Shown: positions 7,192 through 26,399, numbered from the stretch's first letter. The stretch is 32,000 nt of DNA from Promethearchaeota archaeon (GCA_048938295.1 JBHLMI010000008.1:30001-62000); one strand, 5' to 3'. Numbers and translations are program-made. Notes: a model not told the origin generated them from the letters alone.

Positions 7192-10100
7192 ATGTCTTCA
7201 TACGAGCGAGACCCAAATACCGTCAACGGTGACGACGAGCCACGGTTTCGACTCTTTTTTGAAAATGCGCCCCTCTATTGTTATATGGTTTCACCTCAGG
7301 GAATCATTCTGGACATTAACAAAGCTGCTCTCAAGGTGTTAGGTTACACACGAACAGAACTAATTGGCAAACACATTCGCTCTATCTACGCACCAGAATG
7401 TGAGGATAAGGCTAAAGATCTGTTTATTTCGTGGGAGAATGAGGGTACAATTACTGATGAAGAGCTCATTATCCAAACTAAAACTGGTGAACAGCGTATC
7501 GTTCTCTTAAATGCGAACGCGATTCACGAATCTGATGGATCCTTAGCCTATTCGATTTCGATTCAGCAAGATATCACTGAGTTAAGACAAAAGAAAGATG
7601 AGCTCAAGGAAAGCCAAAATGCTTTGAAAAAATCTGAAAAGGAAAAATCTGTGATTCTGGATAATATTTCAGAACACGTTATCTTTCAAGATTTGGAGAA
7701 CCACATCATTTGGGCTAACCGTGCTGCTGCTGAATCGGTGAACAGCAGTGTAGAGGAACTTGTTGGTAAAAACTGCTATGAAGTGTGGAACCAGCGAGAT
7801 ACACCCTGTATTGAGTGCCCTATCGTCATGGCTAGGGAAACCGGTGTTATTCAAGAACATGAGATGCGTACACCTAACGGTCGTGTATGGCATGTGCGTG
7901 GGTATCCACTTTATGATGAGAGTGACACTTTAATCGGTTGTGTTGAGGTCACTCGTGACATCACAGAGCGAACGAGGGTTGAAGAAGCGTATCACAAACT
8001 TGTTGATCAATCAATTCAAGGTCTATTAATTATCCAAAATGGAAAGGTCGCCTTCGCGAATCCAGCGTTTCTCCGAATAAGTGGCTATACAGAGGAAGAA
8101 GTCTTAGCCTTTAGTCCCTGGCAGATATTTGATATCATTCATCCGGATGATCGGAATGTTCCCTGGGAACAGCTGCAGAAAATCATACAGGGCGAACCGG
8201 TTTCAACTACCATGGAGTTGCGTGGAATTCTAAAGGATGGTACCGAACGCTGGTTTGAACTTTCATTAGCTGTTATCGAATACCAAGGTCAACTGTCAAC
8301 GCAAGTAACGATTATGGATATCGACGAGCGTAAAATGATTGAAGAAGCAATCCGACTCGAAAGGGATTGGGCTCAACGGTATTTGGACATGGCAGGGGTC
8401 ATGTTCATTGCTGTTGATACAAAAGGGAATATCACTTTAGTTAATCAAAAGGCCCTCGAGATTTTTGGATACTCAGAAGAGGAAATGATAGAACAGAACT
8501 ACTTCGATTTGTGTATACCTGAGTCATTACGTGCTGAAATGAAAGGGAAATTCCGCGCTAACATGGCTGGAGAAATTGAACCACGTGCTTTTGTTGAGAA
8601 CCCAATCATTACCAAAGACGGCGCAGAAAGACTCGTATCATGGCACACCACTATGTTCTATGATCCCTCCGGAAATCCGATTGGTGCCCTAACAGCAGGA
8701 GAAGACATAACTGAACGCAGATTTGCAGAGAATCTACTACGAAAAGAAAGGGATCGAGCTCAACAATACTTGGATATGGCAGGCGCTGCATTTATCGGAG
8801 TGGATAGGAATCAAAATATTTTTCTCGTTAATAGAAAAGGCTGCGAGATTTTTAGCTACTCAGAAGCTGAACTTTATGGTCAGAATTACTTCGACTTATG
8901 CATCCCTGAAAGACTTCGTGAGGAAATGAAAGACCGATTTGAACGGGCCATGGTAGGAACATTTCAGTTAAGCGAATATGTTGAAAATCCTATTAAGACT
9001 AAACAAGGCACCGAGCGGATGATTCTTTGGCATACTACTGTACTTGAAGATGAGGAAGGAAATAAAACAGGGATCCTGAGTTCTGGAGAAGACATTACGG
9101 AAAGAAAATTTGCAGAAGAAGCTCTGCGCGCCTCAGAGGAAAAATTCCGTTCTCTTGTAGAGGACACCACGGATTGGGTATGGGAAATTAACCGTGAAGG
9201 AAGACTTGTCTATTCAAACAGTGCAGTTGAAGACATACTCGGCTATACTGCTGGACAAATCATTGGGAGATCCTTCTTCGATTATATGGATTCTACAAGT
9301 GTAGAAAATGGTGAAGTTATGTTCACTGAAACGGTTGAAAAGCAGAAACCGTTTAAGAATCTCGTGGATCGCTTCATTCACCGAGATGGTAACATTGTGA
9401 TTCTGGAAGGCAGTGGTCGACCAGTCTTTGATGAGCAGCAACATTTAATCGGTTATCGAGGGGTATGCCGTGACATCACGGAACGTATGCGGGCTGACCA
9501 AATCCTCCGAGAATCCGAATCTCGGTATCGCTCCTTAGTTGAGACATCTCCTGACGCTATTACGCTTACGAATCCAGATGGAATGATTGTCTTAGTCAAT
9601 GAACGCGCTGTTCAATTGTTGGGCTTTAATAATCCTGGTGAACTGAGAGGCAGGAATTGCTTTGATTTCATCGTCCCCGAAGAGCGAAACCGGGCCATTG
9701 AAACTTTGAAAAGCACCAAAGAGCATGGACCGTCAGTTCCCCTTCTCTTCAATCTCATTCAAAAAGATGGTAAGATTTTTCCAGCGGAGATCAGTGCCTC
9801 ACTTCTCATTGGAGCAGCGGGTAAGGCATCAGGATATATTATTGTTGCTCGTAACATCACTGAACGCAAACAAGCCGAACAAGCCTTGAGAGAGGCTAAA
9901 GCGCGGTCAGAGTTCTTCACAGACCTGATGGCCCACGACCTCAACAATATCAACCAGGCTATCCTCTCTGGAATAGAGTTACAGCTGATGAATCCAGAGC
10001 TCCCAGAAGAGCTACGTACACAACTTCAGTTATCCTTAGAGCAAGTGGAACGAAGTGCGGCTTTAATTGGACGTGTCAAGAAATTCTCAGGGATGGATGA

Positions 10101-10584
10101 AGTTCAAACCCTTATGGACATTCGCGACATAGAACCTGACTTTCGTTCTGCCTTAGAAGCAGTCAAGCAGGCTTTTCCCAAGAAGACTATCCTCGTTGAT
10201 ACCAACATTCATCCTGAAGAATTCAAAGTCTTAGCAGATGACTTCCTTGTGGATTTATTTTACAATCTCCTACACAACGCGGTGAAATTTGATCACAATG
10301 AAAAAGTCGACCTTGAAGTGAAAATCTATCCTGACACGAATAAACGTTTCCTCCGTGTAGAAATCAGCGATCATGGTCCAGGAATCCCGGGTGACTTGAA
10401 AGAGCGGATTTTTGCCCGGTACACACAAAAGGTGGGTGAGAAAGCTCAGGGATCCGGTATCGGCTTAACACTTGTTCAACGCATCATCGATCGATTTGGA
10501 GGTCAAATCTGGGTCGAAGATCGGGTCAAGGATACCTATACCCAAGGTGCAAAATTCATTTTTCTCCTCCCAATGTGGACGTGA
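7192..10584 (+). CDS. Cytosolic multi-PAS sensor histidine kinase (7 PAS + HisKA + HATPase)
   Basis: Seven PAS repeats ending in DITE-type motifs; H-box AHDLNN, N-box NLLHNAVKF, G1 DHGPGIP, G2 GSGIGL; no TM segment. Confidence 0.95.
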   Translation: MSSYERDPNTVNGDDEPRFRLFFENAPLYCYMVSPQGIILDINKAALKVLGYTRTELIGKHIRSIYAPECEDKAKDLFISWENEGTITDEELIIQTKTGEQRIVLLNANAIHESDGSLAYSISIQQDITELRQKKDELKESQNALKKSEKEKSVILDNISEHVIFQDLENHIIWANRAAAESVNSSVEELVGKNCYEVWNQRDTPCIECPIVMARETGVIQEHEMRTPNGRVWHVRGYPLYDESDTLIGCVEVTRDITERTRVEEAYHKLVDQSIQGLLIIQNGKVAFANPAFLRISGYTEEEVLAFSPWQIFDIIHPDDRNVPWEQLQKIIQGEPVSTTMELRGILKDGTERWFELSLAVIEYQGQLSTQVTIMDIDERKMIEEAIRLERDWAQRYLDMAGVMFIAVDTKGNITLVNQKALEIFGYSEEEMIEQNYFDLCIPESLRAEMKGKFRANMAGEIEPRAFVENPIITKDGAERLVSWHTTMFYDPSGNPIGALTAGEDITERRFAENLLRKERDRAQQYLDMAGAAFIGVDRNQNIFLVNRKGCEIFSYSEAELYGQNYFDLCIPERLREEMKDRFERAMVGTFQLSEYVENPIKTKQGTERMILWHTTVLEDEEGNKTGILSSGEDITERKFAEEALRASEEKFRSLVEDTTDWVWEINREGRLVYSNSAVEDILGYTAGQIIGRSFFDYMDSTSVENGEVMFTETVEKQKPFKNLVDRFIHRDGNIVILEGSGRPVFDEQQHLIGYRGVCRDITERMRADQILRESESRYRSLVETSPDAITLTNPDGMIVLVNERAVQLLGFNNPGELRGRNCFDFIVPEERNRAIETLKSTKEHGPSVPLLFNLIQKDGKIFPAEISASLLIGAAGKASGYIIVARNITERKQAEQALREAKARSEFFTDLMAHDLNNINQAILSGIELQLMNPELPEELRTQLQLSLEQVERSAALIGRVKKFSGMDEVQTLMDIRDIEPDFRSALEAVKQAFPKKTILVDTNIHPEEFKVLADDFLVDLFYNLLHNAVKFDHNEKVDLEVKIYPDTNKRFLRVEISDHGPGIPGDLKERIFARYTQKVGEKAQGSGIGLTLVQRIIDRFGGQIWVEDRVKDTYTQGAKFIFLLPMWT
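8362..9135 (+). repeat. Intragenic tandem duplication of a 129-codon PAS unit
   Basis: RDWAQRYLDMAG (8362) and RDRAQQYLDMAG (8749) are 387 nt apart; both contain QNYFDLCIPE and VENPI. Confidence 0.85.
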
Positions 10585-10661
10585 TCCCAAGTTTACAATT
10601 TGGGATGAGAGATTAAGATGGTGTAAAACGAAGCGTAATAAGGAACTGGTGTGTAACACGC

Positions 10662-10877
10662 TTATTGTTTCCAGCGCCGCCGTGCTGCTAGCCAGCAAAT
10701 CAAGGTAAAAGCAAACAGAAAGACTCCAGTAAGCACTAACACCTCACCAAGAAACTGCAGGTTCAACAGAAAGGCTACGCCTCCTGCAACAAGGATGGTG
10801 AACCCAATCACAACAGAAAACCCGATCGCTAATCGAGATGAACCAGAAAAGGGTGTTGAGGACTCATCAGAAGACAT
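10662..10877 (-). CDS. Putative small 2-TM protein
   Basis: MSSDESSTP...LICWLAARRRWKQ; two hydrophobic helices, basic C-terminus; overlaps the possible 5' extension of the next gene. Confidence 0.45.
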   Translation of the reverse strand: MSSDESSTPFSGSSRLAIGFSVVIGFTILVAGGVAFLLNLQFLGEVLVLTGVFLFAFTLICWLAARRRWKQ

Positions 10878-11535
10878 GGAACGACCGACTCCAAGGGCCT
10901 TAATCTTATACTTGATAATTGCTGTCACTATAACCCTTTTAGTCTATTTCCTGCCCCAACCCTTCTTCCTTGCTATTCCAACTGCTATCGTCTCTGCTGG
11001 CTTACTCAGCTGGATGGGTATTCCATCCGTGGCTCTGGTCGATTGGATATCGGGAGTAGTTTATGTTTACGTGATTGGATTCCAATATTACCAAATTGTA
11101 CGGGAATGTACAGGCATCCAAGTAATTGCAGTGTTCATGGGTCTGATTCTTCCGCTGCCCCGTGGAACCTGGTCCAGGAAAATCCTTGCTGTTGTTGTTG
11201 TAACTATTCTTCTGTTTGTAGCCAACGTCTTACGAGTCGTTTTTGAAATCTGGCTCGTCTACATGGGGATTCTCCCCTGGGAACTTGCTCACTATCCCAT
11301 GAGTTTCGTTTTAGGAGTAGTAGGGGTCTTTGTCCTTTGTATCGTGGCCATTTTTCTGGTACCAGGCTTTATCGAAACCTTTGAAGATATGATTTACTAC
11401 CTTTTTCCACCAAAACCCAAGAACAGCGATGCAGTCGAATCATCAAACACAGAAAAGTCTCCTAGCAATTTTAAAAAACCAAGCCCAAACCCGATGAGAC
11501 TAAAAATCAGTAGAGGGTTCGGTTTATACTTCTAA
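10795..11535 (+). CDS. Archaeosortase/exosortase family protein (start 10795 or 10876)
   Basis: Multi-TM with Cys (IVRECTG), Arg (NVLR) and His (AHY) triad pattern. Confidence 0.8.
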   Translation: MVNPITTENPIANRDEPEKGVEDSSEDMERPTPRALILYLIIAVTITLLVYFLPQPFFLAIPTAIVSAGLLSWMGIPSVALVDWISGVVYVYVIGFQYYQIVRECTGIQVIAVFMGLILPLPRGTWSRKILAVVVVTILLFVANVLRVVFEIWLVYMGILPWELAHYPMSFVLGVVGVFVLCIVAIFLVPGFIETFEDMIYYLFPPKPKNSDAVESSNTEKSPSNFKKPSPNPMRLKISRGFGLYF

Positions 11536-11547
11536 AGGCGCATTGGC

Positions 11548-12231
11548 TTATTTTTCAGCCCATTGCAATGGCTTGGTTTCATTATAGATTAACCATCGAG
11601 TATCCACCCGAGTACCTCGAAGATGATGTAACCGAATTTTGTGTCTGAGCTGGCTTTTGTCTTCTTCATCACAGATTTCTATAACACCATCCACGGAGAA
11701 TCGCAAAGTTGCTACTACATCGTTTGTATGAACTCCTTCCTCAAGAAGGTAGATTCCAGTTACGCCACGATCCTTCACCCGAGCACAGAGGACTTGGAGG
11801 AATTTTATAACGGATAGTGGTGCTGAATAAGTCATCAAAGTTGTCAAGTTATCAAGGCAGAGGTGACCATTCTCAAGGTCAGCAATCGCTTGAAGAAGGA
11901 GTAAACTAATTGTATTCAGGTCATAGAGATTCTGAAATGAATACGGTTCTTTAGAGGGTTGAGCTGTAACACAAGAAACCCCATCAGCTATCCGAAGCTG
12001 GGAGGCTACTGGCTTTCCTCCGATTTGGCTAAGAGTCTGGCGTATTTGGGCAGGGGACCAGAGAGTCGTAGCAAAAACGGCGGGTTCTTTTACCTTTAGC
12101 CGATCAGCTAAATAGCGTAGAGCAAGGGTAGTTTTCACCACACCAGGAGGTCCAATGAGAAGTAGTTGTGATCCCCTTGGAAGCTCAAAAGCACCCTGGG
12201 GAACAAATGTTGGACTAATAAGGTCAATCAC
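11548..12231 (-). CDS. RAD55/KaiC-like ATPase, predicted inactive
   Basis: Walker A GPPGVVKT (G to V), catalytic EE replaced by LW, Walker B LCLDN, HLRG finger retained. Confidence 0.85.
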   Translation of the reverse strand: MIDLISPTFVPQGAFELPRGSQLLLIGPPGVVKTTLALRYLADRLKVKEPAVFATTLWSPAQIRQTLSQIGGKPVASQLRIADGVSCVTAQPSKEPYSFQNLYDLNTISLLLLQAIADLENGHLCLDNLTTLMTYSAPLSVIKFLQVLCARVKDRGVTGIYLLEEGVHTNDVVATLRFSVDGVIEICDEEDKSQLRHKIRLHHLRGTRVDTRWLIYNETKPLQWAEK

Positions 12232-12931
12232 TATCGATTCCTCCTTGCAGGTATAGTCCTTCTTTCCCGACCTTCATTTCGTACCATTTTGTCTCATGCT
12301 GCACTCCAATTAGACTATATATACGGAGAAACCAGTCAAGTGAGCCCTTTGGTTCAGCAACAGTCTTGGTATGAATTGACCCTTGAACCAAGGATCGAAG
12401 ATTTGTGGTCAGTTTGGCATCATGGGCTTGGTCTTCTAAGACGAGGATGAGAATTTTGTTGAGAGTAATGATGCGCTGTGCGATACTGTGAACAAAAGTC
12501 CGGATGCGTTGTTCATCAGGAGCAGACAGACTAAGTCCTGAAACCGAATCGATGATGATAACCGAACCCGGTTTCAAAAGCTTTGCTTGATCAATCATTA
12601 TTAGATTGACTTCGTTCAGATTTCCGGGATTATTAATTCGATTAAAGGCAAAGGGATCAGTGTGCATTCCAATTCTCCAGCTATAAGCGTCCACAAAATA
12701 GATGGGGAGTTTCCCCGGCTGAGCGGGGAACGGAATTCCAAAACCACGAGCTTGCTGGACAAGTGTGGAAGGTGTGTTTTCTGTGGAAAGATACAGGACA
12801 TCAAGTCCATTATTCGCTGTATCCAATGCAAATTGGAGACTAAAACATGTTTTACCCGACCCTGGTTGTCCAACTAGGACGATACTCGTTCCTTTTGGGA
12901 GCCCACCCTGTAGGATTGGGTCGAGGATCAC
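12224..12931 (-). CDS. RAD55/KaiC-like ATPase lacking the Arg finger
   Basis: GGLPKG, Walker A GQPGSGKT, STEN, Walker B IIIDS; KMRG replaced by SLIG; GTG start after GAGGGG. Confidence 0.9.
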   Translation of the reverse strand: MILDPILQGGLPKGTSIVLVGQPGSGKTCFSLQFALDTANNGLDVLYLSTENTPSTLVQQARGFGIPFPAQPGKLPIYFVDAYSWRIGMHTDPFAFNRINNPGNLNEVNLIMIDQAKLLKPGSVIIIDSVSGLSLSAPDEQRIRTFVHSIAQRIITLNKILILVLEDQAHDAKLTTNLRSLVQGSIHTKTVAEPKGSLDWFLRIYSLIGVQHETKWYEMKVGKEGLYLQGGIDSD

Positions 12932-13126
12932 GATAGCCCCCTCTGTTCTCTTATTCGCACCTCAGATTGGCTCTGTAGCCAAGTTCATAATCTAGCTCTC
13001 CTGAATGGGAATAAAGCTTTTGGGAAGTCTGTAGTTGTTCATGGTTATATTGAGGAGAGACGGAAACCTCTTAAGCCATCATCTTGGTACTTGAATAGTA
13101 GGAGACTTACTAATCGGGGGATTAGT

Positions 13127-13867
13127 GTGGCTGAAAAGACAAAATCAGGTATACCAGGCTTAGATGAAGCATTGCATGGTGGATTTCCCACAGGCTCAGT
13201 GATTCTAATTAGTGGTGGACCGGGTACCGGCAAATCCATTCTACTAAACCAGTTTCTCTTCAATGGTGCGTCACAATTCAAGGAACCTGGGATCCTCGTC
13301 TCTATGGAAGAGTCACTCGCGTCGACGATTAGGAACATGAAACAATTTGGTTGGGATATGCAAGAACTCATGGATAAAGGCTTAATCGCCTTGGTCGATG
13401 CTTCGCCAATGATACAGAATGAACGTATTGTTCTCAAACCTGAGCACCCTGTTCTTGGACGAGAAGAATTTACAATGGAATCACTACTGTCCTTGATACA
13501 TCGTGAAATTCGACGCGTGAAAGCCAAACGTGTGGCCATCGACTCGATTTCGACCCTAACCCTCCAACACAAAGACCTCTTCCGGATTCGACACGACCTG
13601 CTTAACATGGTTCGTTCCCTTCGAATGAGTCAAGCCACCTGCTTGGTGGCAGTGGAAAGCCCCAACGAAGATAGCATCGGACGATTTGACGTCGAAGGCT
13701 TCCTTATGGACGGAGTCATTATGATGAAACTCATGAGCCAGGGAGCGATCCGCATACGAACTATCGAAATTAACAAAATGCGTGGAACAAACCATCAAAT
13801 GAATCCCCTACTCCTCATAATTGGAGAAAAAGGCATTCAAGTCTCCGACCTACCACCCATTCAATAA
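13127..13867 (+). CDS. Single-domain KaiC/RAD55-like ATPase, catalytically intact
   Basis: SGIPGLD...GG, GGPGTGKS, SMEES, VAIDS, KMRG; GTG start at 13127 after GGGGG. Confidence 0.93.
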   Translation: MAEKTKSGIPGLDEALHGGFPTGSVILISGGPGTGKSILLNQFLFNGASQFKEPGILVSMEESLASTIRNMKQFGWDMQELMDKGLIALVDASPMIQNERIVLKPEHPVLGREEFTMESLLSLIHREIRRVKAKRVAIDSISTLTLQHKDLFRIRHDLLNMVRSLRMSQATCLVAVESPNEDSIGRFDVEGFLMDGVIMMKLMSQGAIRIRTIEINKMRGTNHQMNPLLLIIGEKGIQVSDLPPIQ

Positions 13868-13964
13868 CCTCGATGAAAAATACCAGAATGAACCGACTAG
13901 CTTAAATCTCAACAAATGAAAGGAAATACCTGAGGGAAAAATCAACTGGGTTTGGTGACAAAAA

Positions 13965-14504
13965 ATGCGCCCCCAAAGCAGCCGTTACATGTTCAAGGTT
14001 TCGGTAATTGGCGATTACGCCGTGGGAAAAACCTCCCTAATTAAACGTTATATGACGGATTCCTTTGATGAAGGGTATAAAGCAACTCTTGGCGCTGCTA
14101 TTTCCTCGTTCCAAACCAGCGTAAAGGGATCTGATGTCGCGCTGCAAGTTTGGGATCTAGCAGGCCAAACCTCCTTCCGTAGAGTTCGGGTACAATATCT
14201 ATTCGGCACTGATTTCGCGATCGTGGTATTCGATTTAACAAGAAAAGATTCTTTGGACTGTGTTAAAGAATGGGTGAGTGATGTAAGGCAGGGTGCGCCT
14301 GAAGTACTCCTATTCCTTGTTGGTAATAAGGCAGATTTGAAGGAAGATCGAGTGGTGAACCCTGTGGCTGCTGAGAAAGTCGGAAAAAGTTTGAATATGC
14401 TTGGCTACCTTGAGACCTCCGCAAAGGAAGGAACCAATGTCAAAGAACTCTTTCACATCATTTCCGAATACCTCTTAGAACATACATTCACTGTAATAAA
14501 ATGA
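13965..14504 (+). CDS. Rab-like small GTPase (Ras superfamily)
   Basis: G1 GDYAVGKTS, G2 T (KATLG), G3 WDLAGQ, G4 NKAD, G5 ETSAK; no C-terminal Cys. Confidence 0.95.
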   Translation: MRPQSSRYMFKVSVIGDYAVGKTSLIKRYMTDSFDEGYKATLGAAISSFQTSVKGSDVALQVWDLAGQTSFRRVRVQYLFGTDFAIVVFDLTRKDSLDCVKEWVSDVRQGAPEVLLFLVGNKADLKEDRVVNPVAAEKVGKSLNMLGYLETSAKEGTNVKELFHIISEYLLEHTFTVIK

Positions 14505-15979
14505 CAAAAAAGGTGCTCGAACGCGTGACACTCCCAAGGGAAATCACTGAATTCCTGAACGAGGAACAGGGACAAACTCTACTCATCAAAGGAAAATCAG
14601 GAACTGGAAAATCCACACTAGCCTTATCCTTACTTGGTCATCTAGCCGAGACCCTACCTAAGAAATTCAGTGTTGAAAACTTTGTGTACCTTTCAACGCG
14701 TGTTGCAAGCTCGAGTCTGAAATCCCAATTTCCTTGGGCGTTTCAATTGCTTTCAGAAAATCAAATCATCGATGCGACACCATCGCTCATGGGGCTTCCT
14801 GAAACCACCTTAGCGTGTGGGGAGTCATCTAACAATCGGATGGTGTACTCCGATGAGTTGACGTTCATTAGCGCAGTAAATGATCGATTGCGGAACTTGA
14901 CCAATCCTGTGTGTGTCATTGACTCATTTGATGCGATTATCGAAGCCGCGCAAGCTGACCCCCAGCGCCTGACAAGCGCATTAACGAATCTTGGTCGCAT
15001 CCTATGCGGTAAAATCATTCTTATTGTCGAAGGTATTGAGGAGTCGACGTTAGATCATATAGTCGATGGTATTGTATGCGTCACTAAGGAATTCACGGCA
15101 GAGCGGATGTGGCGTAGTCTTCGGCTAATCAAGCTCCGTGGTACGCCAATTGATCAAAGTATGCGAGGATTTTCTCTTCGGGGGAGTCGTTTTACCATTT
15201 TGCATTCATTTGATGCAGAACAAGCCAACCGCGTATCAGATTTCGAGGTCATCGCCCACTCTGGTGGTCGATTTTCGTCAGGAGTCCCAGAACTAGATAC
15301 GGTTTTTGGCGGTTTCAGACGAGGAAGCACATTCTTCATTGATGTCGCCGAAGGCGTCGCCAACGAAACGGTTCACAGTCTAATCTTCAGCATGGTGGCG
15401 AACTTCCTACGCCAAGACAGCGGTGTTGTCATTGTTCCACCAAACAAACTGAGCTTCCGGCGACTCAAAGCAGCCTCACTTCGCTACGGATTTGTCGACC
15501 AACTCAACACACGCCTCCGCTTCTTCGCAAGTGCAGCGACTAGCCTAGGCGTTTCTAGTGCAACTGGAGAACTTGGTGAACCATATTACAAAACCGTGGC
15601 ATTCCGTGAAAGCTCTGATCTTGAGAATGCTTGGAGTATGGTGGTAGAAGAACTCAGAAATCAAGGGTGCAAAAACTTACTAAGCGTAGTAGGCTTTGGT
15701 TGGTTGCATTCATGGTTAGGCCCAACCGAATTACCACGTTGGGCTACGCGGATTGCCAATGATACCGCTACGGAAAGTAACCTAGCAGTCACCATAGGCT
15801 ATAGCAGTACAAAGGATATAAACCGATATCTGGCAGATTTAGCAGACATTCACGTTCAGTTAGCAGTAAAGGAAGGAGTCACAGTCTTTCATGGAATCAA
15901 TCCCTCGACTCCTCAATACTGCATCTACACACACCTTGTGGAGGGAAACCCACAAATTGGCTTCCAAGAAATCGGATAA
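14501..15979 (+). CDS. GvpD-like tandem RecA/RAD55-fold protein (N-domain with intact P-loop, degenerate C-domain)
   Basis: TLPREITEFL...TLLIKGKSGTGKS, VIDS, KLRG; second domain SSGVPELD..GG without P-loop; ATGA overlap with the GTPase. Confidence 0.75.
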   Translation: MTKKVLERVTLPREITEFLNEEQGQTLLIKGKSGTGKSTLALSLLGHLAETLPKKFSVENFVYLSTRVASSSLKSQFPWAFQLLSENQIIDATPSLMGLPETTLACGESSNNRMVYSDELTFISAVNDRLRNLTNPVCVIDSFDAIIEAAQADPQRLTSALTNLGRILCGKIILIVEGIEESTLDHIVDGIVCVTKEFTAERMWRSLRLIKLRGTPIDQSMRGFSLRGSRFTILHSFDAEQANRVSDFEVIAHSGGRFSSGVPELDTVFGGFRRGSTFFIDVAEGVANETVHSLIFSMVANFLRQDSGVVIVPPNKLSFRRLKAASLRYGFVDQLNTRLRFFASAATSLGVSSATGELGEPYYKTVAFRESSDLENAWSMVVEELRNQGCKNLLSVVGFGWLHSWLGPTELPRWATRIANDTATESNLAVTIGYSSTKDINRYLADLADIHVQLAVKEGVTVFHGINPSTPQYCIYTHLVEGNPQIGFQEIG

Positions 15980-16337
15980 GATTCGCATCCTATTAGCAGA
16001 TGATTCACCACACTTTCTCCGTTCAGCTCAGCTACTCCTTCGTGACTATGATATTGAAACTGCACTTGATGGGGAAGAGGCTCTCGCTAAACTTAAGGCT
16101 AATCCACCAGACATCTTCTTCGTGGACCTAGTACTGCCAAAAATTCGGGGTACCGACCTCATTCGCCTAGTCTCAAAGGAGTACCCTGACATTGCCATTG
16201 TCGCTTTGACTGCTATCGATGATCATGAAACTGTACAAGAAGTCATGGATTTAGGTGCAAAAGGTTATCTGATTAAGCCTGTATCATCGGATACCTTCAA
16301 GACAGAAATCAAGAAACATACCGAGTCTAGCGATTAA
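15957..16337 (+). CDS. Stand-alone response regulator receiver
   Basis: ADDS, phosphoacceptor VDL, ALT, IKP; probable TTG start at 15957 after GGAGGG, overlapping upstream stop. Confidence 0.92.
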   Translation: MASKKSDKIRILLADDSPHFLRSAQLLLRDYDIETALDGEEALAKLKANPPDIFFVDLVLPKIRGTDLIRLVSKEYPDIAIVALTAIDDHETVQEVMDLGAKGYLIKPVSSDTFKTEIKKHTESSD

Positions 16338-16348
16338 TCACTTAATAT

Positions 16349-16738
16349 CTACTTGAGGTCCTCGATGGTTCGTCCAGTCTTTTTGAGATATTCTTCAATG
16401 GCTTTATGTAGACCATCTGCAGCCAAGTTAGAGCAGTGCATTTTGATTGGAGGGAGGCCTTCGAGATTATCTGCGACGTCGCTACGGGTTATCTGGTAGG
16501 CTTCTTTTAGAGTCTTGCCCTTTGTGATTTCAGTCACCATGCTCGAAGTGGCGATGGCGGCTGCACATCCAAAGGTCTTGAAGCTGATATCAGTGATGAT
16601 ATCATCTTTAACTTTGATGTAAATCCAGATGAGGTCTCCACACGTTGGGTTCCCAACTTTTCCTATTGCATCGGCATCTTCCATTTCTCCCATATTTCGT
16701 GGATGGGTGAAATGTTCCATTACTTTTTCACTGTACAT
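16349..16738 (-). CDS. iscU: Fe-S scaffold IscU/NifU
   Basis: GNPTCGD, FGCAAAIA, LPPIKMHCS. Confidence 0.97.
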   Translation of the reverse strand: MYSEKVMEHFTHPRNMGEMEDADAIGKVGNPTCGDLIWIYIKVKDDIITDISFKTFGCAAAIATSSMVTEITKGKTLKEAYQITRSDVADNLEGLPPIKMHCSNLAADGLHKAIEEYLKKTGRTIEDLK

Positions 16739-16764
16739 TTTTGGTTCATCTCCTTTTCTGGTGC

Positions 16765-17976
16765 TTAATGGTGATGTTCATGCTCTTCGTCTTCGAAGAG
16801 TTCATAGGGTACATCCTTTGAAAGTGGTGACATTGCCCTTAGTTTTTTGACGATTGGCGGAAGCACTTCGACAAATCGATCGACTTGTACTTGAGTGTTT
16901 TCACGTCCAAGCGTGAGTTGGAGAGCGCCATGGGCTTCAGCTTCGGATACACCCATGCTGATTAAGCAATGAGAGGGTGCAAGTGTCCTAGAGGTACAGG
17001 CGGAGCTGGTAGCAACCAGAAAGCCCTGGAAACTCAGATGCAGAGTTATTGACTCGCCCTCAATATAGCTAAACCGGATGTTAGCGTTATTCGGTAATCG
17101 TTTTGTCGGATGTCCATTTAGATAAGCCTCATCAATTTCGTCGAGTACCCCTTTTATCAAGCTATCGCGTAGCTTTGAGAGGTGCTTAGCATCTTCTGGT
17201 TGCTGCTTTGTTGCAATCTCAGCAGCCTGTCCCATTCCAACAATCCCCGGGACATTTTCTGATCCTGATCGGATTCCATATTCTTGTCCTCCACCGAGGA
17301 TGATGGTTTGAACTGCATTGCCTTTCTTTACGAAAAGAGCACCGACGCCTTTGGGACCATAAAGATCATTTGAAGAAAGCGTCAGTAAGGAAATGTTCTG
17401 TTCAGAGACGTTAATGGGAATTTGACCTGCACTAGCGACAGCATCCACGTGTAGTGGAATATCAGCCGTTGAGGCGATTTTTCCAATTTCAGCTAATGGC
17501 TGGATTGTACCAACTTCATTATTGGCGTGTTGAATTGAAATGAGTATGGTATGGTCAGTTATAGCCTCTTTGAGGGCGGTTGTGTCCACTAACCCATATT
17601 TGTCAACAGGCACCAGGGTCGATTCAAAACCCTGTTTGTTAAGAAACTTCATAGTGTTGATGATGCTAAGGTGCTCAACCTGTGAGATGATGATGTGATT
17701 CCCTTTTCGGCGGTGAAGATAAGCATAGCCTTGCAGTGCTAAATTGTTGGCCTCTGTGGCTCCACTGGTGAAGATAATACGATCCTTCGCATCCGCACCA
17801 ATTAGTTGCGCCACTTGAACCCGGGCATTCTCAACAGCCTTTGCTGATTGTTGCCCTACCATATGCACGGAACCCGGATTTCCATAGTATGTGCGGAAAT
17901 ACGGTTGCATAGCTGCAAGGACTCGTTCATCGACCGGGACTCCAGCACTATGATTGAAGTTGACCTGTTCGACCAT
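16765..17976 (-). CDS. iscS: IscS-family protein with PLP Lys replaced by Asp
   Basis: FTSGATEANN, HANNEVG, SSNDLYGPKG, SSACTS; probable ATG at 17976. Confidence 0.93.
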   Translation of the reverse strand: MVEQVNFNHSAGVPVDERVLAAMQPYFRTYYGNPGSVHMVGQQSAKAVENARVQVAQLIGADAKDRIIFTSGATEANNLALQGYAYLHRRKGNHIIISQVEHLSIINTMKFLNKQGFESTLVPVDKYGLVDTTALKEAITDHTILISIQHANNEVGTIQPLAEIGKIASTADIPLHVDAVASAGQIPINVSEQNISLLTLSSNDLYGPKGVGALFVKKGNAVQTIILGGGQEYGIRSGSENVPGIVGMGQAAEIATKQQPEDAKHLSKLRDSLIKGVLDEIDEAYLNGHPTKRLPNNANIRFSYIEGESITLHLSFQGFLVATSSACTSRTLAPSHCLISMGVSEAEAHGALQLTLGRENTQVQVDRFVEVLPPIVKKLRAMSPLSKDVPYELFEDEEHEHHH

Positions 17977-18010
17977 ATTACATCTCTCCAAATTACTCGT
18001 TTATTAACCG

Positions 18011-18373
18011 TTAGAAAGTTAGTATTGCATCAGCTTCTAAAGCAAGGTCATTGAGGGTTGCTGATCCAACAACTCCACATTCTTTCACGTAACCACCACG
18101 TTCAATGCCTAACATTTGTGTGCTTTGGTCACAAGCCATGAGCTTGACACCAGCTTCGATAGCCTGGTCGATAACTTCATTTAGCGGAGGGAAGTTCCCC
18201 ATCTTGATTTTTTCAGCTTCCCCTTGCTTCATGACCGTCACGCCTTTTATTAGAAAATAGATAGTGGCATCAATATCCATTGTTCTAGCTGTGGTGGCTA
18301 ATACAAACGGAGCATAAAGCCGATGAGGCTCATCTGTTCCGCTTGTTACTACATACAAGATTTTTTTAGGCAT
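18011..18373 (-). CDS. DsrE/DsrF-like sulfur carrier / peroxiredoxin-like protein
   Basis: YFLIKGV...GVKLMAC pattern; ATG at 18373 after GAGGTG. Confidence 0.85.
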   Translation of the reverse strand: MPKKILYVVTSGTDEPHRLYAPFVLATTARTMDIDATIYFLIKGVTVMKQGEAEKIKMGNFPPLNEVIDQAIEAGVKLMACDQSTQMLGIERGGYVKECGVVGSATLNDLALEADAILTF

Positions 18374-18378
18374 TTTTT

Positions 18379-18648
18379 TCACCTCTCAGTCTTTTGAACC
18401 AGGAACCGGAGATAGTCATCACAATGTTCGATTTTTAAAATCGTGTTACCTGTGCGTTTTGCCCATCTTGAGATGTCTTCTTCTGAGGCAGGATCGTCAG
18501 CTAACACTTCAACAACTTCATCGAGTTTTGCCTCTAGCACTGCCTGCCTGGTCTTATACACAGGAATTGGACAATACAAACCCCGTGCGTCAACCGTATG
18601 GTGGATTTCGACCTTGTCGCTTGTTGATTTCTTTGATTCGTCCAACAT
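18379..18648 (-). CDS. tusA: TusA/SirA sulfur carrier
   Basis: DARGLYCPIP (CPxP), LADDP...DI..WA. Confidence 0.92.
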   Translation of the reverse strand: MLDESKKSTSDKVEIHHTVDARGLYCPIPVYKTRQAVLEAKLDEVVEVLADDPASEEDISRWAKRTGNTILKIEHCDDYLRFLVQKTER

Positions 18649-24485: not shown

Positions 24486-26399
24486 ATGGCATTTAAGGTG
24501 TGGGAGATATTGTCTAATAATCGCGGCTTACTTATCCTAGCATTTGTTTTTGCTTTTCTTTTAATTAATATATCAACACCTGCTCAAGTACCTGTGTTGG
24601 CTGAGAATTTTGAATTGAAACAGCCCGATTTTGGAAACGAACTGATAGCGTTTATTAGCCAAGTGAAAATGCAAAACGGAAATGATAACTGGACAGTTCT
24701 TGTATATCTTGATGGAGATAACAATCTAGAGGAGTACGCGTTCGATGATTTGAATTCAATGGAGACAATTGGATCAACTCAAGATGTGAAAATTATTGTA
24801 CTAGTTGATTTTTGGGATGGAACCTATACACCTTTTACAGGCGCAAAATGCTACGAAGTCAGCCAAGATTTGAATCAAAACGTTATTAACTCAATCGAAC
24901 TTGCTACACCACTACCCACGGAACCGGATATGGGTTCTCCCACTATTCTCCGAGATTTCATCGTGTTTGGTCAATCGTACGCTCCTGCTGACAATTATCT
25001 GCTGATTATTTGGGATCACGGGAGTGGGGCGTTTGGCTTGTGTGAAGATGAAACTAGTCAGTCTCAATTAACGATTGAGGAGTTGGAGCAAGCGCTCAGT
25101 GATTCACAAATTCAACATCTAGATATCGTGGCCTTTGATGCTTGCTTGATGGGGCAACTAGAGGTCGCTTACGAAATCCGTAATAGTACGGATTTAGTGG
25201 TGTTCTCGGAAGAATCAGTACCTGTGACGGGATTTCCATATGAAGATATACTACTTAACCTCACGACGTTTCCAACCTCAACACCCAAAACTGTAGCATC
25301 CAGTCTTGTCTATTATTATGTAACGGCCTACGATATTGGTGGACGGTACTATGACCCTATGAACCTTGCTGTGTGTCTGTCCGCGATCGAATGCGATATG
25401 CTTGATGCAGTTGCTGAGGCATTGAATGAACTTGCACAGTTACTTTATACTAGTGTCAACGACCCCCAGCTCTATGAGGCGATATCTTGGGCACGGGAAA
25501 GTACACAAAGTTTCTCATGGACTGAATTCATTGACTTGGACTCCTTCGCTTCAGCGCTTGCCACTCACCTTAATACTAATCCGTACTTTCAACGAGCCAC
25601 CAATTTGTCCTCTTTCATCCAAGCAGCCGTTTACGAGGAACTACATCTAAGTGACGTTCCTGGTGCTCATGGGCTAGGCGCTGTGTTTGGTACTTATGGG
25701 TCTCATCAACTCGCTCTTGCCACCGATACAGAATGGGATGAATTCATTGAGGCATATCTGAATATCGGCGCATCATTTACTGAAGCTTGTCCACTCGTGC
25801 AATATCAAGGCCCAGGAGCTATTTTGGGTCTGCACTGTGGATATCTTGAAGGCGCTTATGATTCTGTATATTATATCTACACTGCAACAGAAACAGGTCT
25901 GCATACCTTTACCATTGATGCAGCCTGGACCCAATTTGAAACTGACTTTGACCTCTACATCTACAATGCCTACCAAGGCCAACTAGCTGAGTCGATCAGC
26001 AGTGACTCGTCAGAAACCATCACCATTAATCTGAGCGAAGGTAACACCTACTATATTGAGGTGTATTCGTATCCAACGGGCGATCTTAGTGCCGGTATCT
26101 TTCTACTCCAAGTTTTCACCCCCTCAAGTACTGGTCCTGCCTTTCCAATACCTCCCCTAACCATGATCATGTTAATCGCAGGTATCGTCGTCGGTATCCT
26201 TGTTGGCGTTATCACCATCATTATCTACCGACGAAGACAAACCAGCAGTACCGAACCCCCGTCCCGCTACACTGCCACAACATACATGCCCGGTTCAGCA
26301 CCATCAACCACCGAAAGCACGAAATTCTGCGCCTATTGCGGTGGAGCAATCCCATCCCGTGCCCACTACTGCCCCATTTGCGGTTCCTCACTGGATTGA
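24486..26399 (+). CDS. Membrane-anchored clostripain-family (C11) cysteine peptidase with PPC-like domain and C-terminal zinc ribbon
   Basis: WTVLVYLDGDNNL, WDHGSG (His), FDACLMG (Cys), DFDLYIY, TM+RRR, CAYC...CPIC. Confidence 0.9.
   Translation: MAFKVWEILSNNRGLLILAFVFAFLLINISTPAQVPVLAENFELKQPDFGNELIAFISQVKMQNGNDNWTVLVYLDGDNNLEEYAFDDLNSMETIGSTQDVKIIVLVDFWDGTYTPFTGAKCYEVSQDLNQNVINSIELATPLPTEPDMGSPTILRDFIVFGQSYAPADNYLLIIWDHGSGAFGLCEDETSQSQLTIEELEQALSDSQIQHLDIVAFDACLMGQLEVAYEIRNSTDLVVFSEESVPVTGFPYEDILLNLTTFPTSTPKTVASSLVYYYVTAYDIGGRYYDPMNLAVCLSAIECDMLDAVAEALNELAQLLYTSVNDPQLYEAISWARESTQSFSWTEFIDLDSFASALATHLNTNPYFQRATNLSSFIQAAVYEELHLSDVPGAHGLGAVFGTYGSHQLALATDTEWDEFIEAYLNIGASFTEACPLVQYQGPGAILGLHCGYLEGAYDSVYYIYTATETGLHTFTIDAAWTQFETDFDLYIYNAYQGQLAESISSDSSETITINLSEGNTYYIEVYSYPTGDLSAGIFLLQVFTPSSTGPAFPIPPLTMIMLIAGIVVGILVGVITIIIYRRRQTSSTEPPSRYTATTYMPGSAPSTTESTKFCAYCGGAIPSRAHYCPICGSSLD

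What the first reader, a model, noticed from the sequence alone, without database searches (positions are those of the whole stretch)
7192..16337. Hybrid signalling locus joining two-component, KaiC/RAD55 and Rab-like GTPase modules
Seen within 9 kb: a PAS histidine kinase, a small membrane protein, an archaeosortase, three single-domain RAD55/KaiC ATPases, a Rab-like GTPase, a GvpD-like tandem ATPase and a receiver without output domain. Established: KaiC-like ATPases are proposed archaeal signalling hubs, and Rab-like GTPases are Asgard eukaryotic-signature proteins. Inference: phosphorelay, ATPase ring and GTPase switch act as one pathway, with protein-protein rather than transcriptional output, perhaps regulating surface-protein anchoring. 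I do not know of this combination being described.
Basis: partly seen in the sequence, partly recalled or inferred. Interest (0 to 1): 0.85.

Follow-up and report, generated by a model that had tools for sequence, protein, structure and literature searches.

The report
KaiC-type ATPase, Rab-like GTPase, receiver module
In a Hermodarchaeia (Asgard archaeon) genome, four KaiC-family ATPase genes and a stand-alone phospho-receiver, usually with a Rab-like GTPase and PAS histidine kinases nearby, recur together in distant relatives, which gives one eukaryote-like GTPase testable partners; the neighbouring archaeosortase does not travel with them.

Summary
Observation: confirmed.

Interpretation: partly supported.
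- Synteny within the genus is uninformative, because the housekeeping flanks are collinear too.
- Deeper comparisons show a real core: two defective KaiC-like ATPases (a/b), read divergently from KaiC_c, then GvpD-like tandem ATPase, then REC.
- This core recurs in the sister genus, in 50-64%-identity metagenome lineages, and in another Asgard family in unrelated flanks.
- A Ras/Rab-family GTPase lies in or beside the module in 5 of 6 lineages; the sister genus lacks it.
- More distant GvpD-like paralogs in two further families also sit next to small GTPases.
- PAS histidine kinases or other two-component genes adjoin the module in 4 of 6 lineages. One 14.5-kb metagenome contig has four kinases and three extra receivers around it.
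- The archaeosortase and its small membrane partner are linked only within Hermodarchaeia. Their homologues elsewhere stand alone, so surface anchoring as the output is unsupported.

Best reading: a KaiC-hub signalling module with phosphorelay input through REC, a GTPase switch attached to the GvpD-like adaptor, and protein-protein output.

I found no paper describing the KaiC/GvpD-small GTPase link. This scan had already flagged the same module on other DNA (e1-2879198, e1-2536628).

The parts
7192..10584 (+). Soluble sensor histidine kinase (7 PAS, H-box His915, HATPase_c). Candidate phosphodonor for the receiver, and a lineage-variable input.
   Evidence: Pfam; motifs; no TM windows. PAS kinases adjoin the module in genus g2, in G145 and in the L148 lineage, but not in L089.
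10662..10928 (-). Small membrane ORF (71-88 aa), read back-to-back with the archaeosortase gene. It forms a unit with that gene and is not part of the signalling core.
   Evidence: Conserved at 59-90% identity in the genus. Paired with Art in g2 and weakly in family f15. Hydrophobic stretch at residues 29-83.
10795..11535 (+). Exosortase/archaeosortase-family polytopic protein (Cys105 in RECTG, Arg147 in NVLRV). A neighbour only.
   Evidence: TIGR04178 43.5 against 23; subfamily models below cut-off. Not linked to the module outside Hermodarchaeia.
11548..12231 (-). KaiC_a: KaiC/DUF7504-type ATPase-like protein with a degenerate Walker A (GPPGVVKT), no catalytic Glu, and the Arg finger kept (HLRG).
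   Evidence: Pfam. The motif pattern is conserved in g1, g2, L089 and G145.
12224..12931 (-). KaiC_b: KaiC-like ATPase with intact Walker A/B, one Glu (STEN) and the Arg finger lost (SLIG). It overlaps KaiC_a by 8 nt.
   Evidence: Pfam. The motif pattern is conserved across lineages.
13091..13867 (+). KaiC_c: canonical single-domain KaiC CI-like ATPase (GGPGTGKS, MEES, IDSIS, KMRG). It is the most conserved gene of the module.
   Evidence: PF06745 E 9e-66; PDB KaiC E 5.5e-71; 81-93% identity in the genus; orthologue at 57% in G145.
13965..14504 (+). Rab-like small GTPase with complete G1-G5 motifs (K22, T41, Q68, NKAD, SAK) and no C-terminal Cys. Its stop overlaps the GvpD-like start by 4 nt.
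   Evidence: GGTGA lies 6-7 nt upstream of the ATG.
14501..15979 (+). GvpD-like tandem RecA/KaiC-fold protein. The N domain has Walker A/B and an Arg but no catalytic Glu. The C domain has no Walker A Lys (GGFRRGST).
   Evidence: Pfam; alignment A2 invariants; AF2 model; Foldseek top 50 all full-length KaiC.
15891..16337 (+). Stand-alone receiver (DD37-38, D79, T107, K129), with its frame overlapping the GvpD-like gene. The likely start is TTG 15957.
   Evidence: PF00072 81.8 bits; motifs. Overlapping GvpD-REC arrangement in all 18 members of the clade.

Best explanation
The heart of the locus is a conserved KaiC-family signalling module. The nine genes are not one unit.

Shown:
- Five genes travel together: KaiC_a/KaiC_b, divergent from KaiC_c-(GTPase)-GvpD-like-REC.
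- The GvpD-like and REC frames always overlap.
- The GTPase and the two-component genes recur beside the module in unrelated flanks.

Inferred mechanism:
- The soluble 7-PAS kinase, or in other lineages the neighbouring kinases, phosphorylates the receiver on D79.
- The receiver has no output domain and is translationally coupled to the GvpD-like protein. It binds that protein in a phosphorylation-dependent way.
- The GvpD-like protein can bind ATP but lacks the catalytic Glu. It acts as a nucleotide-dependent adaptor, as GvpD does towards GvpE. It couples the receiver and the GTP/GDP state of the Rab-like switch to the catalytically complete KaiC_c ring.
- KaiC_a (dead P-loop, Arg finger kept) and KaiC_b (live P-loop, no Arg finger) form a hetero-oligomer with shared active sites. 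This acts as a second ATPase or regulatory unit.
- Output is by protein-protein contact to a target that is not encoded in the module.

The archaeosortase/small-ORF pair and the IscSU-TusA operon are only neighbours.
For: Gene identities.

Within the genus, 9 genomes are collinear, including the ACS and Isc flanks. This is uninformative on its own.

Beyond the genus:
- g2 keeps HK-Art...KaiC_a/b | KaiC_c-GvpD-REC.
- L089 (60% identity) keeps KaiC_a/b | KaiC_c ... GTPase-GvpD-REC without kinase or sortase.
- L145 (62%) and L152 (50%) keep KaiC_c-GTPase-GvpD.
- G145 (another class, 38%) has REC-GvpD-KaiC_c | KaiC_b-KaiC_a-GTPase among three PAS kinase-type genes and a HisKA-REC protein, with unrelated flanks.
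- G223 and L148-150 (38-39%) have GTPase | GvpD-REC. In L148 it sits among 4 kinases and 3 further receivers.

Trees and wider associations:
- The GvpD-like tree gives a 100% SH-aLRT clade whose members all carry the overlapping REC.
- Of the 15 best-scoring GvpD-like loci outside the family, 10 have a GTPase-domain gene as immediate neighbour. These are f6; f23, co-directional with 4-50 nt gaps; and f18, convergent. Chance expectation is about 4% per locus in this genome.

Motifs and genome content:
- The complementary motif defects of KaiC_a and KaiC_b are conserved across classes.
- The genome has only 3-4 receivers and 5-6 HATPase_c proteins. Each of the three receivers that pass the Pfam cut-off has a kinase within 6 kb.
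Against: - No interaction, phosphotransfer or co-transcription was measured.
- The sister genus g2 lacks the GTPase in the locus, and no orthologue was found in its four genomes (80-83% complete). The module can therefore exist without it.
- GTPases beside the module in f6 and f18 fall in different clades from the window's. The link may therefore be repeated recruitment, or partly chance in GTPase-rich genomes.
- The cross-class examples are few: 2 of 76 f6 genomes plus metagenome contigs. Related genomes are not independent samples.
- L089 has no kinase within 10 kb.
- The output is unknown.
Confidence: 0.55

Rival explanations
1. One reading: all nine genes, archaeosortase and small membrane protein included, form one pathway whose output is the control of surface-protein anchoring.
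For: HK, small ORF, Art and KaiC_a/b are contiguous in all g1 genomes and nearly so in g2. Some distant GvpD-like homologues in Theionarchaea lie beside type IV pilus genes, another surface system.
Against: Art orthologues were not found in 76 f6 genomes, although two of them carry the module. L089 has no Art or kinase in the locus. In f23 the Art homologue lies about 790 kb away or on another contig. Art homologues outside the class have no kinase or KaiC neighbour. In g2 a phosphoribosyltransferase gene lies between Art and KaiC_a. Art converges on KaiC_a tail to tail, so they are not one transcript.
Confidence: 0.08
2. Independent units that are only collinear. The kinase signals elsewhere, the KaiC_a/b pair is separate, and only GvpD-like+REC (with or without KaiC_c) work together. 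The GTPase is a passenger in a genome with 29 such genes.
For: g2 lacks the GTPase. G223 lacks KaiC_a/b/c orthologues beside GvpD-REC. L089 lacks a kinase. GTPases linked in different families are not one clade.
Against: The GTPase is inside or beside the module in 5 of 6 lineages, in three different arrangements, and next to paralogous GvpD-like genes in f23 and f18. This is far above the roughly 4% chance rate. Its stop overlaps the GvpD-like start by 4 nt here. Two-component genes adjoin the module in three unrelated contexts.
Confidence: 0.22
3. A KaiC-based timer or hourglass: slow ATPase and autophosphorylation cycles of KaiC_c, with the kinase and receiver as input/output as in SasA/CikA-RpaA.
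For: KaiC_c is very close to the KaiC CI domain (E 5.5e-71). The GvpD-like protein has the two-domain KaiC architecture. Kinase and receiver are adjacent.
Against: No KaiB was found in the genome above cut-off. No protein here has two active domains. The CII-type phosphosites cannot be placed. The habitat is sediment, where a light-driven clock is not expected. That last point is an inference.
Confidence: 0.1
4. RadA/Rad55-type recombination mediators or an anti-virus NTPase system rather than signalling.
For: Weak RadB/RadA/DnaB-type hits for KaiC_b. P-loop-level hits to mad8 in PADLOC.
Against: These hits are P-loop-only and far below cut-offs. No nuclease, helicase or DNA-binding domain is present. 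The partners are REC, GTPase and PAS kinases. No PADLOC family matched beyond E 4e-5 over about 50 residues.
Confidence: 0.04

Closest known systems
Archaeal KaiC-like ATPase 'signal transduction hubs' (Makarova, Galperin & Koonin 2017, mBio 8:e01959-17, as summarised in PMC5847659), including KaiC-REC fusions in Methanosarcinaceae
   Same: RecA-fold KaiC-family ATPases, some inactivated, are genomically tied to receiver, PAS and kinase proteins. Output is presumed to be by protein contacts.
   Different: Here four separate KaiC-family genes with complementary defects form a fixed set. The receiver is a separate, frame-overlapping gene. A Rab-like GTPase is attached. I could not read the 2017 paper (not held), so I cannot exclude that it lists a GTPase neighbour.
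GvpD of haloarchaeal gas-vesicle clusters (repressor acting on the activator GvpE; Pfam PF07088 + PF20440)
   Same: Same two Pfam signatures above cut-off and similar length. A P-loop protein is thought to act by binding a partner rather than by catalysis (the GvpD biology is from my own knowledge).
   Different: There are no gvp genes in the window and no GvpE-type partner. The neighbours are KaiC_c, a GTPase and a receiver. Identity to KaiC in PDB is only about 18% over the fold.
Cyanobacterial KaiABC clock with SasA/CikA kinases and the RpaA regulator
   Same: A KaiC-family ATPase is coupled to histidine kinases and a response regulator. Receiver-like domains bind the KaiC complex.
   Different: There is no KaiB. 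KaiC is split into single-domain proteins. There is no DNA-binding regulator. A small GTPase is present.
Streptomyces conservon CvnA-D and Myxococcus MglA/MglB/RomR (PMC4316618)
   Same: A Ras-superfamily GTPase is encoded or works with a histidine kinase or a response regulator in one signalling unit.
   Different: Those use MglA-type GTPases with roadblock/MglB partners. Here the GTPase is Rab-like, none of the genome's 12-14 roadblock genes is on this contig, and the partners are KaiC-family ATPases.
ArlH and CirA, KaiC-like regulators of the archaellum and of motility/shape (PMC10983859)
   Same: Single-domain KaiC-like proteins act as nucleotide-dependent regulators of another machine.
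   Different: There are no archaellum or pilus genes next to this module. The target is unknown.

Membership tests
KaiC-like ATPase family (Pfam PF06745) / archaeal KaiC signalling hubs | RecA-fold P-loop domain scoring above the PF06745 gathering cut-off | tested here: met
   KaiC_c 222 bits, KaiC_b 98.9, KaiC_a 65.3, GvpD-like 48.1, against a cut-off of 26.6.
KaiC-like ATPase family (Pfam PF06745) / archaeal KaiC signalling hubs | Conserved genomic association with signal-transduction proteins (REC, PAS, kinases) | tested here: met
   REC overlaps the GvpD-like gene in all 18 clade members. Kinases adjoin in g1, g2, G145 and L148.
KaiC-like ATPase family (Pfam PF06745) / archaeal KaiC signalling hubs | Complete catalytic set (Walker A Lys, catalytic Glu, Walker B Asp, Arg finger) | tested here: inconclusive
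   Met only by KaiC_c. KaiC_b lacks the Arg, KaiC_a lacks the P-loop Gly and the Glu, and the GvpD-like protein lacks the Glu.
KaiC-like ATPase family (Pfam PF06745) / archaeal KaiC signalling hubs | Hexameric ring and autophosphorylation | not testable with these tools
   Needs biochemistry.
GvpD (gas-vesicle regulator) | GvpD_P-loop (PF07088) plus basic region 2 (PF20440) above cut-off | tested here: met
   50.7 against 24 and 33.6 against 27.9.
GvpD (gas-vesicle regulator) | Location in a gvp cluster with GvpE/GvpA | tested here: not met
   No gvp gene among the window's annotated ORFs. The genome search for PF00741 found nothing, but its controls were silent too.
Rab family of small GTPases | G1-G5 motifs with the catalytic Gln | tested here: met
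   GDYAVGKT, T41, DLAGQ68, NKAD, SAK.
Rab family of small GTPases | Closest solved relatives are Rabs | tested here: met
   All 60 matches listed are Rab/Ypt proteins, with Rab6B best at E 4e-35.
Rab family of small GTPases | C-terminal Cys prenylation motif | tested here: not met
   The sequence ends ...TFTVIK and has no Cys in the tail. It is therefore Rab-like, not a Rab in the eukaryotic sense.
Rab family of small GTPases | RabF1-F5 motifs | tested here: inconclusive
   By eye, against motifs recalled from memory, RabF2-like (LQVWDLAGQ) and RabF5-like (VVFDLT) are present and the others are weak. No formal test was run.
Two-component system (kinase + response regulator) | Kinase with H-box and N/G1/G2 boxes; receiver with DD, D, T, K | tested here: met
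   AHDLNN 914-919, LLHNAVKF, DHGPGI, GSGIGL; REC D37/D38, D79, T107, K129.
Two-component system (kinase + response regulator) | Cognate pairing (phosphotransfer) | not testable with these tools
   Only proximity is available. The kinase is 5.4 kb from REC. The other two receivers of the genome that pass the cut-off have their own kinase within 4 kb.
Exosortase/archaeosortase | Family signature TIGR04178 with the catalytic Cys and Arg | tested here: met
   43.5 against 23; RECTG and NVLRV.
Exosortase/archaeosortase | Membership of a named subfamily (heimdallarchaeosortase, ArtH, ArtA, ArtE) | tested here: not met
   59.1 against 130, 47.1 against 200, 29.8 against 75, 25.5 against 95.
Exosortase/archaeosortase | Cognate substrates with a C-terminal sorting signal | not tested
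   Not pursued, because the gene proved unlinked to the module.
KaiABC oscillator | KaiB partner and a double-domain KaiC with two active sites | tested here: not met
   The best KaiB match is 17.3 bits against a cut-off of 27. The C domain of the GvpD-like protein lacks the Walker A Lys.

The most novel reading that the evidence does not exclude
GvpD-like KaiC-family ATPases are the dedicated partners of a set of Rab-like GTPases across Asgard archaea, as effectors, nucleotide-state readers or GAP/GEF-like regulators. In the Hermodarchaeia/Thorarchaeia clade this pair is wired to a His-Asp phosphorelay through a frame-coupled receiver. That would be a prokaryote-style way of controlling a eukaryote-like GTPase, one that does not rely on longin or roadblock proteins.
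Probability: 0.3. Interest if true: 0.8.

Novelty: new variant of a known kind. Interest (0 to 1): 0.6.

Why it matters
Asgard genomes carry dozens of Ras/Rab/Arf-like GTPases; this one has 29 matches. These GTPases are central to ideas about how eukaryotic membrane traffic and signalling arose, yet almost none has a known partner or input. A module that repeatedly places such a GTPase next to a GvpD-like ATPase, a receiver and PAS kinases names concrete proteins to co-express, pull down and assay. It also extends the proposed archaeal KaiC signalling network to a three-way junction of ATP, GTP and phosphoryl switches. Showing that the archaeosortase is only a neighbour prevents a misleading functional annotation.

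Tried and rejected
- Complex prediction of the GvpD-like protein with the GTPase, using my own alignments A2 and A1: no verdict (score 0.01, mark 0.32). This is not evidence either way.
- Sequencing runs: no RNA holder was listed. Only DNA sediment metagenomes hold the stretch (two earlier attempts failed). Nothing can therefore be said on expression or operon structure.
- Literature:
  - The 2017 KaiC-hub paper is not held.
  - Searches for Asgard + small GTPase + KaiC and for Asgard + GTPase + KaiC returned nothing. GvpD + Asgard and KaiC + Ras-like GTPase + archaea returned nothing relevant.
  - Two reviews that cite the 2017 paper added nothing.
- PADLOC: only P-loop-level hits, so the defence reading was dropped.
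- KaiB: none above cut-off.
- GvpA search: nothing found, but the controls were silent, so it is uninformative.
- The 101-aa ORF between the GTPase and the GvpD-like gene in L089 was tested as a possible roadblock/longin partner. It has no Pfam hit and no homologue in the own genome or in any other locus.
- Rfam: no RNA family in the window.
- Within-genus synteny was set aside as evidence, because the ACS and Isc flanks are equally conserved.
- The genome-contig scan returned only lineages already seen.


Full report
**What is there**

The window is G000:C50:30001-62000 of a 2.5-Mb, 91.6%-complete MAG. Record titles of same-genus genomes read Candidatus Hermodarchaeota and Ca. Hermodarchaeum yapensis. 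A few are labelled Thorarchaeota or Odinarchaeota. The host is therefore an Asgard archaeon of the class Hermodarchaeia.

- A soluble 1130-aa kinase with seven PAS stretches, an H-box and HATPase_c.
- A small hydrophobic ORF on the minus strand.
- A polytopic protein that passes the exosortase/archaeosortase signature but no subfamily cut-off.
- Three single-domain KaiC-family ATPases.
- A Ras-family GTPase. All 60 of the best solved relatives listed are Rab/Ypt proteins, but it has no C-terminal Cys.
- A 492-aa protein with the GvpD_P-loop, KaiC and GvpD_bR2 signatures.
- A receiver with no output domain.

An AF2 model of the 492-aa protein (pLDDT 84, pTM 0.80) matches full-length KaiC over about 500 columns in all 50 top Foldseek hits. 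'Tandem ATPase' is therefore right as a fold. The C domain, however, has no Walker A lysine.

**Gene layout**

- KaiC_b and KaiC_a overlap by 8 nt on the minus strand.
- A 159-nt gap separates them from KaiC_c on the plus strand.
- A 97-nt gap with a GGTGA before the ATG leads to the GTPase.
- The GTPase stop overlaps the GvpD-like start by 4 nt.
- The receiver frame overlaps the GvpD-like end. The first ATG gives an 89-nt overlap. A TTG at 15957, preceded by GGAGG, gives the 23-nt overlap seen in relatives.
- The sortase gene converges on KaiC_a, and the receiver converges on iscU.

**Motifs**

- KaiC_c has the full catalytic set and is very close to the KaiC CI domain (E 5.5e-71).
- KaiC_b keeps Walker A/B and one Glu but has SLIG in place of the Arg finger.
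- KaiC_a has a degenerate P-loop and no catalytic Glu but keeps the Arg.
- The GvpD-like N domain keeps Walker A/B and the Arg but has no catalytic Glu.

These patterns hold in orthologues from both Hermodarchaeia genera, from the L089 lineage and from G145 in another class. The GTPase has all G motifs and the catalytic Gln. The receiver has DD, D79, T107 and K129.

**Is the set co-conserved?**

Nine same-genus genomes are collinear over the whole stretch, but so are the acetyl-CoA synthetase and IscSU-DsrE-TusA flanks. This says nothing about function. The informative comparisons are deeper. The lineages below are ordered by identity of the GvpD-like protein to the window's.

| Lineage | Identity | Arrangement |
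|---|---|---|
| g1 | 74-95% | Full set |
| L089 / L145 metagenome lineage | 60-64% | GTPase-TackOD1-TackOD1, then KaiC_a/b, KaiC_c, an inserted lipoate-ligase gene, GTPase, a 101-aa ORF, GvpD-like, REC. No kinase or sortase within 10 kb. L145 shows KaiC_c-GTPase-GvpD-REC. |
| Sister genus g2 | 56-58% | Kinase, sortase, an inserted phosphoribosyltransferase gene, KaiC_a/b, KaiC_c, GvpD-like, REC. No GTPase. |
| L152 | 50% | KaiC_c-GTPase-GvpD-like, then the contig ends. |
| G145, family f6, another class | 38% | REC-GvpD-KaiC_c divergent from KaiC_b-KaiC_a-GTPase. A HisKA-REC protein and three PAS kinase-type genes are adjacent. The other flanks are unrelated. |
| G223 and L148-150 | 38-39% | GTPase divergent from GvpD-REC, with no KaiC_a/b/c orthologues. 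In L148 the triad sits among four kinases and three further receivers. |

Counting over these six lineages:
- REC follows the GvpD-like gene wherever the downstream DNA is visible.
- A GTPase is present in 5 of 6.
- KaiC_c is present in 5 of 6.
- Two-component genes are present in 4 of 6; L145 and L152 are too short to judge.
- The sortase is present in 2 of 6, both Hermodarchaeia.

A tree of GvpD-like proteins puts all REC-linked members in one clade with 100% SH-aLRT support.

**The GTPase link beyond this clade**

Of the 15 best-scoring GvpD-like loci outside the family, 10 have a GTPase-domain gene as immediate neighbour (wider flanks):
- f6.
- f23, GvpD-like followed by the GTPase, co-directional, with gaps of 4-50 nt.
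- f18, convergent with a longer GTPase-domain protein.

One f18 genome shows GvpD-like, KaiC_c and GTPase in a row.

In this genome a GTPase gene would lie within 1.3 kb of a given gene about 4% of the time.

The GTPase tree places the Hermodarchaeia-linked and f23-linked GTPases in one weakly supported clade (SH-aLRT 87). The f6- and f18-linked ones fall elsewhere. The association is therefore either old and fast-evolving or repeatedly re-formed. In either case adjacency is being kept. Related genomes are not independent, so I count about four lineages rather than ten loci.

**The two-component link**

The genome has only 3-4 receivers and 5-6 HATPase_c proteins. The other two receivers that pass the Pfam cut-off each have a kinase within 4 kb. 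The window's kinase is the nearest one to the window's receiver, 5.4 kb away. Two kinases on C34 are orphans. Together with the kinase-rich surroundings in G145 and L148, this makes phosphorelay input to the receiver likely. Which kinase is cognate is not shown.

**The sortase**

- Orthologues were found in all 18 Hermodarchaeia genomes, always paired back-to-back with the small ORF.
- None was found in 76 genomes of family f6.
- In f23 the homologue is about 790 kb from the GvpD-like gene or on another contig.
- No kinase or KaiC gene flanks sortase homologues outside the class.

I therefore treat the sortase and the small ORF as a separate two-gene unit. The idea that the module controls surface anchoring has no support.

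**Mechanism**

Shown: the gene identities, the motif states, and the conserved adjacency and frame overlap.

Inferred:
- A kinase phosphorylates REC.
- REC-P binds the GvpD-like adaptor, which binds ATP but probably hydrolyses it poorly.
- The adaptor links REC and the GTP/GDP state of the Rab-like protein to the active KaiC_c ring.
- KaiC_a/b form a shared-site hetero-oligomer.
- The output is a protein contact with an unidentified target, since no DNA-binding or enzymatic output domain is encoded in the module.

**Comparison with known systems**

- The class is that of the archaeal KaiC signalling hubs, as summarised in PMC5847659, which also reports KaiC-REC fusions.
- The nearest named protein is haloarchaeal GvpD, but no gvp context exists here.
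- The KaiABC/SasA/RpaA system is an analogue for KaiC plus phosphorelay, but there is no KaiB.
- The conservon and MglA/RomR are analogues for a GTPase plus two-component proteins (PMC4316618), but they use roadblock partners. None of this genome's 12-14 roadblock genes is on this contig.

No paper in the searchable library combines Asgard, GTPase and KaiC, and the only one holding both GvpD and Asgard is unrelated. The 2017 hub paper could not be read.

**Earlier notes of this scan**

The same GTPase/KaiC-like/REC operon was reported before in another genome, labelled Thorarchaeota (e1-2879198). A GvpD-like/Rab-like pair was reported in Lokiarchaeia (e1-2536628). My results agree with both, and I reached them from my own searches.

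**Verdict**

This is a new variant of a known kind. Interest is moderate to high because it gives an Asgard small GTPase concrete, testable partners. The physical links remain to be shown.

Noticed in passing
window 26554-28761 (+): A 735-aa family B DNA polymerase gene lies in the only high-GC stretch of the window (0.54-0.555 against about 0.45 elsewhere). It may be a foreign or mobile-element polymerase.
   Followed up: no
window 10662-10928 (-) and 10795-11535 (+): The archaeosortase-family gene and a 71-88-aa membrane ORF are read back-to-back. With the internal Mets as starts, their start codons overlap (10876/10877). The pair is conserved in both Hermodarchaeia genera and weakly in family f15 (L110).
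   Followed up: partly
G000:C50:18085-19568 (outside the window, locus L002) and L089:2117-5145: The closest paralogue of the module GTPase (48% identity) is followed by a TackOD1-domain protein. In the L089 lineage the same GTPase-TackOD1-TackOD1 unit lies directly beside KaiC_a. This is a second GTPase-signalling pairing.
   Followed up: partly
window 16349-18648 (-): A TusA-DsrE-IscS-IscU operon converges on the receiver gene. It is collinear with the module in all Hermodarchaeia-type lineages but absent from the f6 contexts, so it is a neighbour only.
   Followed up: partly
L091:2961-9392 and L092:3-6210: GvpD-like homologues (30% identity) in Theionarchaea-labelled contigs lie next to a type IV pilus-like set (T2SSE, two T2SSF, A24 peptidase) and a radical SAM gene, with no GTPase.
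   Followed up: no
L087 (G081:C122:1-7900): Three GvpD-like paralogues and a KaiC_c-like gene lie in one 7.9-kb contig of family f18. This is a local expansion of the family.
   Followed up: no
L148:1-14516: A metagenome contig is packed with four histidine kinases and four receiver proteins (one REC-REC, one hybrid REC-PAS-GAF-PAS kinase) around the GTPase | GvpD-like-REC triad. It looks like a dense phosphorelay island.
   Followed up: partly
window 24486-26399 (+): A clostripain-family (C11) peptidase with a PPC domain, possibly a secreted or surface protein. It was not checked for a sortase signal.
   Followed up: no
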